Origin: Eledone cirrhosa
Taxonomy: Eukaryota
Assembly: GCA_964016885.1 (NCBI GenBank)
Contig: OZ024740.1
Location: 85,312,001-85,376,000 of the forward strand
DNA: 64,000 nt
Reading direction: 5' to 3'
A program made the position numbers and the translations under genes. The notes under the pieces were generated by a model that was given only the letters and a program-made list of their open reading frames with translations, was not told where the DNA came from and searched no databases. This document shows, one piece after another, positions 1,716-64,000 of the stretch. How positions within the stretch are numbered: the stretch's first letter is position 1; the number at the start of each line of letters is the position of its first letter.

Positions 1716-2316
1716 TAATTCTTTCAGGTAAAAACAAATAACGAAACGAAATTAAATTTCGTTTCGTTTGTAACTCACTTTTGTATGACTGACGCTTAAA
1801 CAATTAAGTTAAAGATGTACATCCATATATGTATACTGAAATACTAGTATGTATATGAATACACACACGTATACATATGTAGATGTACCAAGTTTCGTTA
1901 TTTGTTTTTATCGTCTCCGTTGAACCGGTACTTACTCACACTCTGTGCGGATTAGTCTGCCCACTACTAATTTTCATAGAAAAAGCATATAACGATATGT
2001 GCTTTTACGATTCTCTAGAGAGGCCGGAAGATAGGTAAATATTGCTGATGAGTTGTAACAACAACGAAACTAGTTCAATATTCCTTGTCTGGCTTTCTGG
2101 AGAATAGAGGAAAGGTGTTTCCTCAAAAACCAGTATGACTCTAAAAACCGGTTTGTCTGTGTGTTTACATACAGAATAGCTGGCCACTCACAGTAAAGTG
2201 ACCAGTAAAAAAACTTGGTACATCTACATATGTATACGTGTGTGTATTCATATACATACTAGTATTTCAGTATACATATATGGATGTACATCTTTAACTT
2301 AATTCTTTCAGGTAAA
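1716..2316. mobile_element. Non-coding HHR-bearing fold-back element (retrozyme-like / non-autonomous PLE) with 17-bp TSD
   Basis: TAATTCTTTCAGGTAAA at 1716-1732 and 2300-2316; 1802-1893 is the inverted copy of 2213-2304; 1730-1747 is the inverted copy of 1892-1909; HHR at 2038-2082. Confidence 0.85.
2038..2082 (+). ncRNA. Minimal type-I hammerhead ribozyme
   Basis: Stem I AATATTG/CAATATT; CTGATGA; stem II GTTG-TAACAA-CAAC; GAAA; palindromic stem III CTAG; cleavage triplet GTT. Confidence 0.88.
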
Positions 2317-16446: not shown

Positions 16447-16796
16447 ATGCACACACATTATGCATGTATGTATGTAAAGGGTAAACAGAAATAACAAAAA
16501 TAACAAAACAAACGACACAGTATATGGAAGAAATATATATTATGTGTGTGTGTCCTTGTGTGTGTGTCTGTATGTAGGTGTGTATATATAAGTGTGTGTG
16601 AATATATGTGTATGTATGTATATGTGTGTGCGAGGGTGTGAATGTGTGATAAGAATCTATCGATGTCGTATCTACCGGAAAGAAAGATAAGTCGATTTAT
16701 CCGGGATAACCCGGGATAACTGTATGACACACGAAAATAACTGATTGTTACAGTGTGTCAATTAATTAATTGTTCGATTTTGAAGGAAATGTGAAG

Positions 16797-17363
16797 AGAA
16801 GGCAACGACAACGTATGGACACCATACAGATGACAACGACAACGTATGGACACCATACAGAAGGCAACGACAACGTATGGACACCATACAGAAGACAACG
16901 ACAACGTATGGACACCATACAGAAGACAACGACAACGTATGGACACCATACAGAAGGCAACGACAACGTATGGACACCATACAGAAGACAACGACAACGT
17001 ATGGACACCATACAGAAGGCAACGACAACGTATGGACACCATACAGAAGGCAACGACAACGTATGGACACCATACAGAAGACAACGACAACGTATGGACA
17101 CCATACAGAAGGCAACGACAACGTATGGACACCATACAGAAGACAACGACAACGTATGGACACCATACAGAAGGCAACGACAACGTATGGACACCATACA
17201 GAAGGCAACGACAACGTATGGACACCATACAGAAGACAACGACAACGTATGGACACCATACAGAAGACAACGACAACGTATGGACACCATACAGAAGACA
17301 ACGACAACGTATGGACACCATACAGAAGACAACGACAACGTATGGACACCATACAGAAGACAA
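16797..17363. repeat. 31-bp minisatellite, 18 copies plus a partial
   Basis: Unit AGAAG(G/A)CAACGACAACGTATGGACACCATAC with internal hairpin GTATGG-ACA-CCATAC. Confidence 0.95.
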
Positions 17364-17580
17364 TAATTGTTTCTACTTTAGGCACAAGGCCAGCAATTTG
17401 AGAGGAGGGGGAAAGTCGATTAAATCGACCACAGTACACATTGGTGCTTTTATCGACTACGTAAGGATGAAAAGCAAAGCTAACCTCAGCGGGATATGAA
17501 CTCAGAACGTAAAGGGCCATAACTCCCTGCTGTGAATCATGGTGTCCGATGCTCTACCGATAGTGCCAACCTATCACCCT
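17362..17580 (-). mobile_element. SINE family A abutting the minisatellite
   Basis: Tail AATAATTGTTTCTACTTTAGGCACAAGGCC and core on - strand. Confidence 0.85.
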
Positions 17581-22705: not shown

Positions 22706-23650
22706 CGTTTCTGAATTTGTTTAGCAAGATTCTTTATCTGAAATCGTGTGTTGAAACCGATATTGTTATACTTTGGGAGGGTCATGTTGCCAATAAGAAA
22801 CACACGCACCAGTTGCTTTCACTTCAATTTATTATAATAAATTTATAAATTTCTGGTTGGTTGGTTGGTTCCACAACCAGATAGTTGTTTATATATTGTC
22901 ATAGTTCTTTCGTCACACACTCTGTGACCTCTTCAGTGACTGGGGATTCCTTTCTTTGTTTTTGTGCCTCTCCTTTGTTCTGTCCTACGCCATTTTGTTT
23001 CTCTGTGTGTGTTGTGTGCTCAGTCTGCGCATGCGCCACATCCGGGTGTCTGTGTGTGTTTATGTTCATTTATTTATTTGTTTATTTACATGTTACTGGT
23101 TGGTTGTTTGTTCTATGTGTGTGTGTGTTTTAATTTTGTCCTTAATTGTAAGTTGTGATGTTGCTGTTCCACTCATATTTTCTATTTAATTTTGGTTGTA
23201 ATTTTTTTATGTTTATTGCCTCTGTGATTTGTCTAAACATTGCGTCTTTTCTGTGTGTAGATTCTCTTTTTATTTCTATGTTCTCTAATTTACCCTTGTG
23301 TTCTATTTTAGCATGTTGGTAGAGTACAGATGATTCTTTACTATCTGGAAGGTCTCGCCAGTGTTCATTTATCCGTTCCCCTACACTACGAGCTGTCTCA
23401 CCTATGTACACTATATAGAGGTGAATTAGCTTACAAATTTAGAAGGGCCCTAGATAAACATAAACTCAATATTAAGATAGTAGAAAGAACAGGTACCTCC
23501 GTAAAAACACTTATTAGCAAGACATACCCTTTTCAAAGACCCTCATGTATAGATAAGAAATGTATAACCTGTAAAATAAGCCCCCATATTAACTGTAAAA
23601 CTAGAAATGTAGTGTATAGCATAAGATGTACTGAAGGACAATGTAGAGAC

Positions 23651-29935: not shown

Positions 29936-30278
29936 TATTGGGTTGTTAATTCACTGAGGAACTGGAGTCATATCCAGTTCCTCAGTGAATTAACAACCCA
30001 ACAAGGAACTGGGCATATCAGAGTATTGACAATATTATACACCTAAACAACATATGTACTTGTCTATACCATACTAATTCAAACTGCCTGAAGAGGTCAC
30101 AGCCAAAGATGGCTGTCACTGAAATATATATAGCAGTAATAAACGAAGCTAAATTTTAATCATTTGACTTTTATTTAACTTTATTTTACACTACTCCGGA
30201 GTAACCAAACCAACCTGCGCACTTCGTCGAGTGCTCCAGCCTGCATACTGAGGTGTTGGTATACAACCAACATAAACT

Positions 30279-30282
<4 letters not shown>
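29936..30282 (+). mobile_element. HHR-bearing PLE-derived element, copy A (short fold-back head)
   Basis: Hairpin 29938-30002, HHR 30083-30137, tail runs into (TA)n; homologous to 30380-30925. Confidence 0.85.
30083..30137 (+). ncRNA. Minimal type-I hammerhead ribozyme
   Basis: ACTGC-CTGAAGA-GGTCACAGCCA..TGGCTGTCACT-GAAA-TATATA-TA-GCAGT. Confidence 0.85.
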
Positions 30283-30358
<76 letters not shown>

Positions 30359-30379
30359 GTATATATATATATATATATA

Positions 30380-30925
30380 TTGAGTATATGCTGGTTGTCT
30401 ACCGACACCTCAGTATGTAGAATGGAGCACTCGACGAAGTACACAGGTTGATTTGTTTACTCCGGAGTAATGTAATATAATTAAGTGAAATATGTAAAAT
30501 TTGGCTTCGTTTCCTATAAATTATAGATATACTGCTATATATATTTCGGTGACAGCCATCATTGGCTGTGACCTCTTCAGGCAGTCCGAATTGGTGTGGG
30601 AAGGACAGGTACACATGTTGTTGAAGTGTGTTTTACTCCGTCAATACATCGATATGTCCAGCTCCTGGTTGTGCTATTATTTCTCCGAGGAACTGGAATC
30701 ATATCTTCCAGTTCCTCAGAGAAATAACAACGCAACCAGGAGCTGGACATATCGATGTATTGACGGAGTAAAACACACTTCAACAACATGTGTACCTGTC
30801 TTTCCCACACCAATTCGGACTGCCTGAAGAGGTCACAGCCAATGATGGCTGTCACCGAAATATATATAGCAGTATATCTATAATTTATAGTAAACGAAGC
30901 CAAATTTTACATATTTCACTTAATT
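30380..30925. mobile_element. HHR-bearing PLE-derived element, copy B, with about 220-bp fold-back arms
   Basis: Near-perfect palindrome 30479-30925 centred at about 30702; HHRs at 30531-30585 (-) and 30819-30873 (+). Confidence 0.9.
30819..30873 (+). ncRNA. Minimal type-I hammerhead ribozyme (mirror copy 30531-30585 on -)
   Basis: Stem I ACTGC/GCAGT, CTGAAGA, long stem II, GAAA, palindromic TATATA stem III. Confidence 0.85.
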
Positions 30926-31377
30926 ATTTTATATATATATATATACACACACACATATGTATATGTATATTTATGTATATATTTGTGTCTGTGTGTGTAT
31001 AAGAACAATGTTGTCAGAACTGACATCTATGCAATGCAATCTTCAATTGTCTGCTATGAGAACCACCCAGTTACGTTGCCTTCTTATGGGCTCCATCTCC
31101 CTTTCATCTCTTGGATCAGATATTTTCCTGTCAGATATTTCCATTGCTGCGTGCACTGATGAGGTCCTTCCCACCACACACACACGCGCGCAGCCACCCT
31201 TCACACATATACTCAGAGCCTAGTGTGCGCTTTACTGTTCTTTAATACAGACCACCCTCTATAACACTTAGGATTTTCCTGATGACGTCACCATCACAAA
31301 ATAATAACATAATAAATGTGAATACAGCAGTATATATTTAATAGTTATAATGACTTTACCACAAGGTACTACCGCCC

Positions 31378-47816: not shown

Positions 47817-48481
47817 GAAATAGGATTTCGCTTCAAGCATAGCCTTATACAATTTGTATAAATATTTCGTATTTCCAAAGAAATACGGTTTTAGGAAGCC
47901 GTAGCTATGCAAACCCCGGGGGCGGGGGGGCTAACGCCCCTTGGTGATGTCCAGCAGAAGCAAGGGGGACAACTGTCTATGCATTTCAGGCTTAACTGGC
48001 CATCGTCAGGACGGTTCCTCCCACTGCTTGCGACTGCTGGACTAGAAGACAGTCGAGAATATATAGTTTTCTCGTCTGTGTAAATGAGGTGATTAATCTC
48101 ATTTGCATATGAAGCTGCATAAGTTGGCTCAACTTATAATAAAAAAGAAATAGGATTTCGCTTCAAGCATAGCTTTATACAATTCTTTTTTATTATAAGT
48201 TGAGCCAACTTATGCAGCTTCATATGCAAATGAGATTAACCACCTCATTTACACAGAAAAGTATATATTCTCGCCTGTCTTCTAGTCCAGCAGTCGCAAT
48301 CGGTGGGAGGGACCGTCCTGACGATGGCCAGTTAAGCCTGAAATGCATAGACGGTTGTCCCCCTTGCTTCTTTCTGCTGGACATCACCAGAGGGCGTTAG
48401 CCCCCCCCCCCCCCCCGCCCCCGGTATTTGCATAGCTACGGCTTCCTAAAACCATATTTCTTTGGAGATACGAAATATTTA
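47811..48481. mobile_element. Retrozyme-like fold-back element, 330-nt monomer, in (TA)n
   Basis: 47856-48145 is the inverted copy of 48186-48481; direct repeat TAGGATTTCGCTTCAAGCATAGC at 47821 and 48151; HHRs 47971-48016 (-) and 48311-48356 (+). Confidence 0.88.
48311..48356 (+). ncRNA. Minimal type-I hammerhead ribozyme
   Basis: GACCGTC-CTGACGA-T-GGC CAGTTAA GCC-T-GAAA-TGCA-TA-GACGGTT. Confidence 0.85.
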
Positions 48482-48562
48482 TATATATATATATTTATTT
48501 ATTTAGGTCTGTTGGGTCACCACTGGATAGAACTGGTCATTCCGTATGGTCAACCTCGATGT

Positions 48563-48834: not shown

Positions 48835-49057
48835 CCTAACTGTACTAAGGATCTTACACATTTTCCAATATATACTAATAACAAAAAGGACGAAGTGTTA
48901 GGTCTTCATTACGTTTATTGAGGTGTGACGCGCGTTTCGCGACTGATCAGCTCAAAGTACAATCTGTATCGATCTGGTCCGACTCTGGAATTAAAAGGTC
49001 GTCGGACTTCTGTTATGGTAATGACAGAATACAATCGCTAAATATATATATATATAT

Positions 49058-49235
49058 AAGTGTTGAAGTTTCCGTGGAAAAAGTAAAAGCAATGAATAGT
49101 GCTCTATATAAGTTACAGAGCTAAATATTTAATGTATAATAAACAATACAGTATAATTACCTCATTACTCGAGGTTTCCCGAACAGGACGAACATAAGAG
49201 ACGTCCGCATTCGTTCGTCAGATGAAGCAATCTAA
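49058..49235 (-). mobile_element. HHR-bearing PLE-type tail, family H (copies 50385-50568 +, 51481-51666 -, degenerate 60722-60890 -)
   Basis: Shared tail TTTAGCTCTGTAACTTA.ATAGAGCACT...CGGAAACTTCAA ending in (TA)n. Confidence 0.8.
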
Positions 49236-49635
49236 CATAGTGAGATATTTGAAAAAAGCTCATCAAGAAAGGCTAAAATGTTTAACGGGCAAAAAATATA
49301 AATAAAAGTAATAAGACAAAAAAATATATAAAAATATATAAAAATAAAAATAAAGAAATATACTGAGATGATGTGTGTATATGTACATACATATGCACAC
49401 GTGTGTATATGTACATACATATGTACACATGTACATGTGTGTGTATGTACAACTGCATGTGTATAGTGAAAAACATGTATACGTAAGTACATACATGAGG
49501 ACAAATATATAGGTGTATGTGTGACCATATATATATTTTAAAAATAGAAATTGTAAGATAATGAAGTTTGCGTACATGCAGACGCAAAGACTAAGGGCTG
49601 GTGTACATACACATACAAACATAGTTTATTCACGT

Positions 49636-49684
<49 letters not shown>

Positions 49685-49896
49685 CGAAGGTAATGTGGTA
49701 AGGAACCAGGTGGACCATAACGCACCAAAGTACTCAATACTTGAGGTAGTAGAGTGGGTAATAGGAATTAGCTGTCGAAACGGCTTGAGCTCAGCTGTCG
49801 GGGTCTTACTGGTTCCTATATATATATATATATATATATGTACGTATGTATGTATGTATGTATGTATGTATGTATGTATGTATGTATGTATGTATG

Positions 49897-50172
49897 TCAT
49901 CTTGGTTAAGAGAGTGTGACTGGCTTTGTGCAGTGCCTTTGCTCACTATAAAAGCTTCACGGCACAGGCATTGCTTTATATCTGGAGATCTCTCTGCACT
50001 TGTCGTCACATGGTACCATGGGCCCAGCACTATGTGTCAATAATTGTCACAAGTGTAGTGTTTTCAAGTCGCTGGCTGGACTAAAAATCACAATCGTTCA
50101 GCGCATCGGTAGGGGTTCTCCTATATGGATATAAAGTAGTGGCCGTACTCGAAAACGAGTTGGCATCCACCA
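49897..50172 (+). mobile_element. 5'-truncated copy of the RTE-derived element, between (TATG)n tracts
   Basis: Matches the 3' half of 53944-54550. Confidence 0.88.
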
Positions 50173-50390
50173 TGTATGTATGTATGTATAGGGTGTCGCA
50201 AAAAATGTATACACACTTTGATTACCTGTACAGGCCATATTTATTAGAATGCTGCTGAAGTGTATATATATATTTTTGGGGGGAGACCCTGTACACACAC
50301 ACATATATATATATATATGTATATATATGTATTTATACATATATATATATATATATATATTTATACATACCCATATAAACTATGTTTTAA

Positions 50391-50466
50391 ATTGCCTTGT
50401 CTGACGAACGAATGGGGACGTTTCTTGTATTCGTCTTATTCGGGAAACCTCTGGTAATGAGGTAAT
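50391..50466 (+). ncRNA. Type-I hammerhead ribozyme with long stem II
   Basis: ATTGCCTTGT-CTGACGA-A-CGAATGGGGACG..CGTCTTATTCG-G-GAAA-CC TCT GG-TA-ATGAGGTAAT. Confidence 0.75.
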
Positions 50467-50564
50467 TACATTGTATTGTTTATTATACATTAAATTTAGC
50501 TCTGTAACTTACATAGAGCACTCTTCACTCCTATGACTTTTTCAATTTTCAACGGAAACTTCAA

Positions 50565-50628
<64 letters not shown>

Positions 50629-50670
50629 GGGTATGTATAAATATATGTATATGTATATATATATATCTGT

Positions 50671-50747
<77 letters not shown>

Positions 50748-51295
50748 GTTTTTTATGTATGTATGTATGTATGTTATCACTGTAGAAAAAATATAAGAGA
50801 ATAGTGCAAAAGCCGGGACAGATTAAGAAAAAGTAGCAAAACATACCTGAAAACCACAGCTAGAGTAGATTCAAGGGTTAGGAACAGGCTGATGTAAGTT
50901 TGGTTCTATATAAGCTTACTGCCAAGAAATATATGATAAACATTTAACGAATGCTACATTAGGTAAGATAATGTTTCCAGAATCTTCTCATCAGAAAGAA
51001 CTAGCTAGACATGATTTAGCCAACCAGATGAGTAAGAAGTAAGTAGTTTCAGAGCAATGTTATTTTCTACAGTCGCACCACCACCATCATCACCAACACC
51101 ACCACCACCACCCGTAACACTATCTACCCATTCCACCACAGAAAGAAGAATGAAATCCAGGTTAACCAACGAAATACCAATAATATAGTTATTTATTTTT
51201 CAATCCCAACTTCACAAATGTCTAGAAACTTCTATGCATCGCTGTCCCTACTACGAAAGTGTTATACGCTACGGTCCAGAGACGTGTATGAGTAT

Positions 51296-51341
<46 letters not shown>

Positions 51342-51399
51342 GTGTGTGTGTGTAGTATATATATATATTCACTACACCCCCCACACACATATATATATA

Positions 51400-51483
<84 letters not shown>

Positions 51484-51663
51484 TATTGAAATTTCCGTTG
51501 GAAACAGAAAATGTCATAGAAGTGAAGAGTGCTCTATGTAAGTATCAGAGCAAAATTTAATGTATAAAAAAAAAATCAATACAATATAATTACCTCATTA
51601 CCAGAGGTTTCCCGAATGAGGCGAATACGAAATAAACGACTTCATTCGTTCGTCAGACGAGGC

Positions 51664-51768
<105 letters not shown>

Positions 51769-57409: not shown

Positions 57410-59706
<2,297 letters not shown>

Positions 59707-62596: not shown

Positions 62597-63838
62597 TATA
62601 ATTTTGAAAAAATGAAACGAAATTTCATTTCTCACTCTTAGTACGGCTGTTACTTAAATATAAGTATGTATACGTACATACATATATGTATACAGACGTA
62701 CAGTAGTATGTATATATATATACATACATGCACACATATATATATGTACGTATGGATTCATCGAACATTTATTATAATGCTCGGTGTGTTTGTAAACAAA
62801 CATCCCGAATTAAGCCGTACAGTGTCTAGCAACCATCGTTGCCCTTTTGTTCAACACTGACAAAGGAACGATGTACTAGTTTCAAGCTTATTAGCTATCG
62901 TCAGCAACGTATACCTTCCTGCCAGATGATTGAACGTCTGAAAGTATATACTTTCCTTATGCATATTAACGGCTGGGCAGCCTAATTTGCATATCGAGTG
63001 AGTTAATCGGCCAGGGTACCGAAAACGATAAACGGAAAAAATGAAACGAAATTTCATTTCTCACTCTTAGTACGGCTGTTACTTAAATATAAGTATGTAT
63101 ACGTACATACATATATGTATAAAGACGTACAGTAGTATGTATATATATATACAGACGATAGCTAATAAGCTTGAAACTAGTACAGCGTTCCTTTGTCAGG
63201 GTTGAACAAATGAGCAACGATGGTTGCTAGACACTGTACGGCTTAATTCGGGATGTTTGTTTACAAACACACCGAGCATTATAATAAATGTTCGATGAAT
63301 CCATACGTACATATATATATATGTGTGCATGTATGTATATATATATACATACTACTGTACGTCTGTATATATATATGTATGTACGTATACATACTTATAT
63401 TTAAGTAACAGCCGTACTAAGAGTGAGAAATGAAATTTCGTTTCATTTTTTCGGTTTATCGTTTTCGGTACCCCGGCCGATTAACTCACTCGATATGCAA
63501 ATTAGCCTGCTCAGCCGTTAATATGCATAAGGAAAGTATATACTTTCAGACGTTCATTCATCTGGCAGGAAGGTATACGTTGCTGACGATAGCTAATAAG
63601 CTTGAAACTAGTACAGCGTTCCTTTGTCAGGGTTGAACAAATGAGCAACGATGGTTGCTAGACACTGTACGGCTTAATTCGTGATGTTTGTTTACAAACA
63701 CACCGAGCATTATAATAAATGTTCGGTGAATCCATACGTACATATATATATGTGTGCATGTATGTATATATATATACATACTACTGTATGTCTGTATACA
63801 TATATGTATGTACGTATACATACTTATATATATAATTT
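62597..63838. mobile_element. Retrozyme-like tandem + inverted element, about 430-nt monomer
   Basis: About 1.25 units on - (62605-63152) then about 1.55 units on + (63154-63829); HHRs at 62868-62910 (-), 63154-63188 (partial, +), 63577-63619 (+); TATAATTT on both flanks. Confidence 0.9.
63577..63619 (+). ncRNA. Minimal type-I hammerhead ribozyme
   Basis: ACGTTG-CTGACGA-T-AGCT AATA AGCT-T-GAAA-CTAG-TA-CAGCGT. Confidence 0.88.
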
Positions 63839-63841
63839 GTA

Positions 63842-64000
63842 CTAGCAGAAGTACCCGGCGTTGCCCGGGTGTAAGTCGACCTTTGGTCTGTTAGAATGTG
63901 TGAAAGTTACTTCCCAGCGCATCACAGGTTCAAAACTTCGAACTTCAATGAAAAAAAATAGGTTAGTAGACGCAGGTGTGTAATTTATTAATTGTAGTTA
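63842..64000 (-). mobile_element. Helitron 3' end (continues beyond the window)
   Basis: A|CTAG followed by hairpin ACCCGGCGTTGCCCGGGT, same as the 25183 terminus. Confidence 0.75.

What the first reader, a model, noticed from the sequence alone, without database searches (positions are those of the whole stretch)
62597..63838. Tandem plus inverted ~430-nt HHR array able to release a unit-length RNA
Predicted + strand cleavage sites after 63182 and 63613 are 431 nt apart, and the - strand period is 429. The + arm begins inside the catalytic core (GACGA), so the first site could only be cut in a dimeric or trans arrangement through the palindromic CTAG stem. The copies are nearly identical (recent) and are flanked by TATAATTT. 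This is the clearest rolling-circle-like footprint in the window.
Basis: partly seen in the sequence, partly recalled or inferred. Interest (0 to 1): 0.8.

Follow-up and report, generated by a model that had tools for sequence, protein, structure and literature searches.

The report
Ribozyme retrozyme inserted Penelope-style
This is one ordinary, probably dead-end copy of a repeat family with more than 10,000 copies that carries a predicted self-cutting RNA motif; the family's insertions have the same paired long and short ends as a Penelope-type jumping gene in this genome, which likely copies them, possibly from small RNA circles.

Summary
The repeat structure is real: a + arm of 1.6 units (period 431) and a head-to-head − arm of 1.3 units (period 429), inside an 8-nt duplication. 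It is one copy of a non-coding type I hammerhead (HHR) family, a metazoan non-LTR retrozyme: 10,046 exact cores, and 37,919 with sister families. The HHR fold covaries across families. This copy is unlikely to release a monomer unaided: its first HHR has U4A and no stem I 5' strand, and the inverted arms are predicted to bury the second. The family tells more. 3' ends fall 221 or 277 nt after the cut, mostly into (TA)n; 24 of 26 inverted insertions pair one short with one long end. An autonomous Penelope-like element (PLE) here does the same in 10 of 10 pairs, with matching spacing but no sequence similarity. None of 30 sampled units starts at the cut site, and a sister-family insertion holds 20 identical units over both arms. 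Likely mechanism: a PLE reverse transcriptase primes both target ends on ligated circles or uncut multimers. No RNA data. Known kind, unusually clear footprint.

The parts
62597..62604 (.). Left copy of a probable target-site duplication TATAATTT, after a (TA)n/(GT)n tract
   Evidence: (4 of 94 insertions have a duplication of 8 nt or more; null mean 0.64)
62606..63156 (-). Inverted arm, unit positions 149-431 then 1-270 (unit position 1 = 63183); ends at the long (tail-bearing) 3' site
62606..62654 (-). Tail (unit ~222-270 of the 222-277 tail) with the conserved GAAATGAAATTTCGTTTC hairpin, present at this end only
62868..62910 (-). Complete type I hammerhead motif, single on this strand; U.U mismatch in stem I (T3/T398); predicted cut after 62874
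63154..63832 (+). Direct arm, unit positions 403-431, 1-431 and 1-~221; ends at the short 3' site
63152..63188 (+). Defective first hammerhead: core reads CAGACGA (U4A), no stem I 5' strand; its cut site (after 63182) could be cut only by a partner core
63183..63613 (+). One full 431-nt unit from cut to cut; non-coding, highly structured (z −9.0, partly from its (TA)-rich palindrome)
63495..63502 (+). Octamer ATGCAAAT, candidate internal promoter element (function untested)
   Evidence: intact in 117 of 141 aligned copies; also in families B and C
63577..63619 (+). Complete type I hammerhead: stem I ACGTTG/CAGCGT with distal extension, stem II U.U + AGC/GCT, palindromic ACTAGT stem III; predicted cut after 63613
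63831..63838 (.). Right copy of TATAATTT

Best explanation
This locus is one insertion of a non-coding hammerhead repeat family (a metazoan non-LTR retrozyme) that was likely written into a (TA)-rich site by the reverse transcriptase-endonuclease of a Penelope-like element, and it is probably a dead-end product rather than a source of unit-length RNA. Shown: a 431-nt unit with thousands of dispersed copies; a covarying type I HHR; two fixed 3' ends 56 nt apart, coupled one long plus one short in inverted insertions; (TA)n targets; arms that run through the cut site; and the same end rule and spacing in an autonomous PLE. Inferred: source loci with two intact HHRs are transcribed, self-cleave as dimers, and the monomers are ligated into circles. 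The PLE protein cuts both strands at (TA)n and primes cDNA from both ends, one at the short and one at the long RNA site. It copies round the unit 0.1 to 31 times, and the two 5'-truncated cDNAs join head to head, here through a ~3-nt microhomology. The two arms here were likely copied from two different RNA molecules.
For: Copy number: 10,046 exact cores; 26,289 post-cut 28-mers; 37,919 relaxed cores over three related families. Structure: 93.9% of cells paired, 10 of 22 pairs with double-sided changes, 0 of 500 shuffles as high, slid controls 29-47% (17 sequences, 15 distinct). 3' ends: 56 of 151 arms at 212-229, 58 at 261-278, 37 elsewhere; 89 of 114 classed ends run into (TA)n. Coupling: of 42 two-armed insertions, 26 have both ends classed, giving 24 long+short, 2 short+short and 0 long+long (p 1e-5). 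Four of four fetched two-armed family C arrays follow it. An autonomous PLE (1,217-aa frame, YVDD, CX4CxxC linker, C-terminal GIY-YIG) has 10 of 10 inverted pairs long+short, into (TA)n, with short end ~216-224 nt after its HHR cut and a 43-58 nt tail. Template passes the cut site: 0 of 30 post-cut hits start there, 29 carry the HHR upstream. One template per insertion: rare alleles are shared 74 of 419 within arms, 40 of 249 between arms and 586 of 77,545 between insertions. C1:30.83 Mb holds 7+13 units with 0 differences in 8,958 cells and 3-17 differences to other insertions. Literature: PAc cuts and extends both strands and starts internally at two sites that bound the tail (PMC11167929); circular monomers are shown for coral, mussel and axolotl retrozymes (PMC7229834).
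Against: No RNA was seen, so cleavage, circles and expression are untested here. No autonomous partner shares sequence with the unit: three PLE families were checked, so the link rests on geometry and target only. Arms are not fully homogeneous: common minor alleles agree in 330 of 444 same-arm comparisons (74%), and some arrays show AB-AB or trimer patterns (L172, L178). These fit DNA-level duplication or multimeric templates. HHR cleavage was dispensable for PAc insertion in vitro, and 8 of 9 Xenopus retrozyme dimers did not cleave in vitro (bioRxiv 10.64898/2026.07.22.740005). The loci were selected by queries spanning the cut site; only one search's sample (30 hits, about 21 insertions) is unbiased for 5' ends.
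Confidence: 0.7

Rival explanations
1. Same PLE-driven insertion, but from linear uncleaved read-through multimers of existing tandem arrays; the HHR is retained yet no circle is the template.
For: Long homogeneous arrays exist as possible sources. HHR mutants did not impair PAc insertion. AB-AB and mixed-haplotype arms occur (L172, L039, L018). 0 of 30 starts at the cut site fits uncut multimers as well as circles.
Against: A linear copy cannot be longer than its source, so 13- and 31-unit arms need another growth step. Twenty identical units over two arms, with alleles distinct from seven other insertions, is simplest from one small template. Covariation shows the HHR stayed under selection across families.
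Confidence: 0.25
2. One reading: this locus is itself an active source that releases and circularises a 431-nt RNA.
For: One full unit lies between two GTA sites, and the second HHR folds in a + arm-only transcript. Partner HHRs in trans could be plentiful.
Against: The first core is defective and cannot cut site 2 in an intramolecular dimer. The whole-locus transcript folds into a ~500-bp hairpin at −891 kcal/mol. The only octamer in the + arm lies inside the unit, downstream of site 1. Better sources abound: 13 intact core-to-core intervals among the first 100 listed cores (counted by hand).
Confidence: 0.15
3. A DNA-level satellite: tandem and inverted copies arose by slippage, unequal exchange or fold-back without an RNA step, or by assembly error.
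For: (TA)-rich unit and flanks; higher-order repeats in L178; the bioRxiv paper favours local expansion by unequal crossover.
Against: Fixed 3' ends with variable 5' ends, the long+short coupling, dispersed copies on many contigs, arms carrying different family alleles, and 2-3% differences between copies do not fit slippage or a chimeric assembly. Contigs of public runs hold the unit independently, but none spans the locus.
Confidence: 0.05

Closest known systems
Metazoan non-LTR retrozymes (Cervera and de la Pena 2020, PMC7229834; parts 1-4 of 6 read), especially axolotl HHR_Amex1/2 and newt satellite 2
   Same: Short non-coding low-GC tandem units with a type I HHR, thousands of copies, a 1-bp palindromic stem III as in Amex1, a U.U pair at the base of stem II as in Amex2, and co-existing PLEs.
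   Different: The unit (431-484 nt) is slightly above their 170-400 nt. Circles are not shown here. Inverted arms, two fixed internal 3' ends and the tail are not described in the parts I read.
Penelope-like elements: PAc (PMC11167929; parts 1-2 of 4 read); structure per Craig et al. 2021 (PMC8557442; passages and section 11 read)
   Same: Partial tandems, an inverted 5'-truncated copy, a tail at one end only, two internal RT start sites, AT-rich or (TA)n targets, an HHR upstream of the 3' end.
   Different: No ORF; the tail is 56 nt rather than 30-40; the HHR has an extended canonical stem I rather than the minimal PLE form; arms reach 31 units.
Retrozymes as non-autonomous PLE derivatives (bioRxiv 10.64898/2026.07.22.740005; parts 1-3 of 5 read; supplements closed)
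   Same: Proposes PLE origin and mobilisation of animal retrozymes.
   Different: Its evidence is co-occurrence and pLTR similarity in Xenopus. Here there is no sequence similarity to the PLEs tested, but shared insertion geometry.
Non-autonomous Chlamys PLEs such as MRC1 (passage in PMC8557442)
   Same: Non-autonomous PLEs with multicopy head-to-tail insertions.
   Different: They share 3'-end sequence with autonomous families, and their clade lacks canonical HHRs.

Membership tests
Type I hammerhead ribozyme | CUGANGA...GAAA...UH core with three helices, open helix I | tested here: met
   core kept across families A, B and C except N7; 10 pairs with double-sided changes; Rfam gathering gave 0 hits
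Type I hammerhead ribozyme | Self-cleavage | not testable with these tools
   no assay; dimer energetics only
Metazoan non-LTR retrozyme | Short non-coding, low-GC tandem repeat with a type I HHR in each unit | tested here: met
   met for the family; this copy has only one complete HHR per strand
Metazoan non-LTR retrozyme | [quoted passage not shown] | tested here: not met
   not met by this copy; met by other copies, 13 intervals among the first 100 cores listed
Metazoan non-LTR retrozyme | Expressed as linear and circular monomer RNA | not testable with these tools
   no RNA holder listed
Metazoan non-LTR retrozyme | No LTR/PBS/PPT; TSD longer than 4 bp when present | tested here: met
   8-14 nt duplications in 4 of 94 insertions; no LTR layout; PBS and PPT not searched separately
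PLE-type insertion | Partial tandem plus inverted 5'-truncated copy | tested here: met
   42 of 94 complete insertions are head-to-head
PLE-type insertion | Tail between two fixed 3' ends, at one end only | tested here: met
   24 of 26 long+short
Autonomous PLE | ORF with RT and GIY-YIG | tested here: not met
   no coding ORF in the unit
Derivative of a specific PLE pLTR | Sequence similarity to the pLTR of an autonomous family | tested here: inconclusive
   none with three families examined; other PLE families in G000 were not examined

The most novel reading that the evidence does not exclude
The genome records the retrozyme life cycle directly. A dimeric Neptune-type PLE enzyme primes both broken DNA ends at two different fixed sites, always one short and one long, on small circular hammerhead RNAs that share only geometry with its own RNA. 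It rolls round them up to 31 times in a single insertion event, sometimes using two different circles for the two arms.
Probability: 0.4. Interest if true: 0.78.

Novelty: new member of a known kind. Interest (0 to 1): 0.5.

Why it matters
Which enzyme mobilises animal retrozymes, and whether circles are the templates, is proposed but unshown in the papers read. How PLEs make their tandem/inverted ends is called undefined in PMC8557442. This family gives countable footprints: a near-strict long+short end rule shared with an autonomous PLE, and brand-new two-armed insertions of up to 20 identical units. It also names a candidate enzyme and RNA for an in vitro test. The window copy itself is an ordinary example.

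Tried and rejected
Rfam at gathering thresholds: 0 hits. RNA evidence: no RNA holder listed; contigs of four runs of unstated kind hold pieces of the unit, none spans the locus. Partner search: a young 713-aa PLE with Hydra-like motifs has no matching HHR or tail, though retrozyme short ends abut it at (TA)n; the L055-type family gave no similarity in the 20 loci compared, whose flanks may not reach its pLTR. Pfam found no informative family for the PLE proteins, so clade names rest on motifs, not a tree. One search used a mis-registered structure string and is void; one search is the corrected count. The first TSD test excluded TA-rich matches, including this locus's own, and gave 3 of 94 against a null of 1.4; it was redone. 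Apparent core conservation (0.9% against 2.3%) is not used, because loci were selected on the core. Pile-up of 5' ends at the cut site was rejected: 6 of 151 arms start at positions 1-4 by BLAST, but only 2-3 do on inspection, about chance. A hypervariable 5' segment, seen in one 31-unit array, is not general in the pooled arrays, mostly family A (1.7% against 1.2-1.6%). Earlier findings of the scan: nothing. Coats et al. 1994 (newt snRNA-type promoter) is not held; I saw only a citing passage, and the octamer link is recalled. Six literature searches showed no paper describing long+short coupling in retrozymes; subscription journals and the bioRxiv supplements were not visible.

Full report
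Observation. A + arm (63154-63832) repeats with spacing 431 and a − arm (62606-63156) with spacing 429. The arms are 96.8-97.7% complementary. With 63183 as unit position 1, the − arm is 149-431 plus 1-270, and the + arm is 403-431, 1-431 and 1-~221. The arms meet at their 5' ends with about 3 nt of overlap, and their 3' ends point outwards. TATAATTT flanks both ends. Complete hammerhead cores lie at +63583 and −62904. Rfam gave no hit at gathering thresholds.

The ribozyme. The motif is type I: stem I ACGUUG/CAGCGU with a distal extension, stem II with a U.U base pair and AGC/GCU, and a stem III of one C-G pair closing UA within the palindrome ACUAGU. On 17 aligned copies from this family (A) and two sister families (B, C), 93.9% of cells pair and 10 of 22 pairs show double-sided changes. 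No shuffle of 500 reaches this, and slid controls give 29-47%. The structure was drawn from the window copy and the sequences are related, so the double-sided changes carry the weight. Such a stem III is reported to need a dimeric fold (PMC4209133, part 1 of 4 read; PMC7229834).

Can this copy release a monomer? Probably not unaided. The first core reads CAGACGA (U4A) and has no stem I 5' strand. In a double hammerhead each core cuts the partner's site, so the intact second core could cut after 63182, but nothing in cis is placed to cut after 63613 except the strained monomer fold (inference). A transcript over the whole locus is predicted to form a ~500-bp hairpin that includes the second HHR. 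The − strand has only one HHR. Among the first 100 listed exact cores, 13 intervals are intact core-unit-core stretches (hand count), so better sources are common.

The family. G000 is a 3.0-Gb genome with 10,046 exact cores, 26,289 post-cut 28-mers and 37,919 relaxed cores covering units of about 431, 470-500 and 466-468 nt. The unit has no coding frame. After removing overlapping loci, 90 loci gave 157 arms, of which 151 were away from locus edges. Their 3' ends fall at 212-229 (56) or 261-278 (58), with 37 elsewhere. Their 5' ends are scattered, and 89 of 114 classed 3' ends run into (TA)n. Both end sites are homologous in families A, B and C and end in a T/A-rich motif that could anneal to a (TA)n primer; a hairpin lies between them. 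Of 94 complete insertions, 42 are head-to-head. Of the 26 with both ends classed, 24 pair one long with one short end, 2 are short+short and none long+long (p 1e-5); 16 had at least one unclassed end and were left out. The window follows the rule. Duplications of 8 nt or more occur in 4 of 94, this locus included, against a null mean of 0.64.

The likely enzyme. Partial tandems, an inverted 5'-truncated copy and a tail at one end are the described PLE signature (PMC8557442 passages). PAc cuts and extends both strands and starts reverse transcription at two internal sites bounding the tail (PMC11167929). [quoted passage not shown] It has one short and one long end in 10 of 10 inverted pairs examined, all into (TA)n. 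Its short end lies about 216-224 nt after its own predicted HHR cut and its tail is 43-58 nt, against 221 and 56 in the retrozyme. Its tail is the start of its ORF, as in PAc. It shares no sequence with the unit beyond (TA)-rich matches and short words, nor does a 713-aa Hydra-like family. The partner is therefore a candidate, not identified.

The template. Cleaved linear monomers would stop cDNA at the cut site. None of 30 hits chosen by the post-cut 28-mer (about 21 insertions) starts there, and 29 carry the HHR upstream. The template was thus ligated or uncut. Units of one insertion share rare alleles: 74 of 419 within an arm, 40 of 249 across arms, 586 of 77,545 across insertions. A family C insertion at C1:30.83 Mb has 7+13 units with 0 differences in 8,958 cells, a short end on one arm and a long end on the other, and 3-17 differences to seven other insertions. 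Another has 31+1 units. This is what one small circle copied from both ends would leave. Against a pure circle model, common minor alleles agree in only 330 of 444 same-arm comparisons, and AB-AB or trimer patterns occur. Multimeric templates, template switches or later DNA duplication therefore contribute. Across arms agreement is 142 of 274. The window's arms differ at five family-shared alleles (T3, T18, A29, G31, T292), which suggests two template molecules, though conversion or recurrent change is possible.

Promoter. An octamer ATGCAAAT at 63495-63502 is intact in 117 of 141 aligned copies and present in B and some C units. Newt satellite 2 is cited as having an snRNA-type promoter (passage in PMC2220036); that this involves an octamer is recalled, and function here is untested.

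Comparison and verdict. It works like a non-autonomous PLE and belongs, by the features testable here, to the metazoan non-LTR retrozymes; expression and circles could not be tested. PLE mobilisation is already proposed. What this genome adds is a counted end rule shared with an autonomous PLE and very young two-armed multimers. I found no such description in six searches, with subscription papers and bioRxiv supplements unseen. New member of a known kind; interest 0.5.

Noticed in passing
G000 C1:5,738,0xx-5,752,7xx (L145, L146): A family C insertion with 31 + 1 units, 0.5% apart with no decay with distance. Six of eight shared-variant columns lie in the first 56 nt after the cut (G27 to A or T, G39A, T44G and others), rare in other copies. 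It could be per-round RT misreading of one template, or local exchange; unexplained.
   Followed up: partly
G000 C1:30,831,5xx-30,840,9xx (L189, L190): 7 + 13 units of 468 nt, all identical, short and long ends into (TA)n: best candidate for a brand-new rolling-circle insertion.
   Followed up: yes
window 1730-2260: Copy of sister family C (about 70% like the unit in the tail region) with its own hammerhead at 2045 and compensatory stems.
   Followed up: yes
window 63842-63869 (−): CTAG preceded on the − strand by a GC-rich hairpin, 3 nt from the right duplication; resembles a Helitron 3' end (recalled hallmark, not tested).
   Followed up: no
window 57562-59651: Broken PLE (RT and endonuclease pieces on the − strand) between inverted 122-nt repeats that each carry a hammerhead-like core at 57629 (−) and 59584 (+).
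   Followed up: partly
window 47857-48483; 29938-30934; 49039-51754: Other inverted or tandem repeats with hammerhead-like cores (48009/48318; 30088/30580/30824; 49221/50401/51656), apparently further PLE terminal-repeat insertions.
   Followed up: no
window 20729, 22261, 62265 (−), 22936 (−): Single hammerhead-like cores of other families; 22936 resembles the HHR of the 1,217-aa PLE clade and lies near a GIY-YIG fragment at 23312.
   Followed up: no
L153, L157, L158, L162, L164: Young 713-aa PLE family with Hydra-like motifs; no canonical HHR found, but a half core follows a possible 3' splice site upstream of the ORF. Retrozyme short ends abut 5'-truncated copies in L151, L162 and L108.
   Followed up: partly
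L172 (G000 C1:19.315 Mb) and L178: Arrays with AB-AB and trimer higher-order patterns; in L172 the B unit has a change in stem I, so a dimeric circle or a later duplication could explain it.
   Followed up: no
window 16758-17400: Tandem repeat with long open frames in several phases.
   Followed up: no
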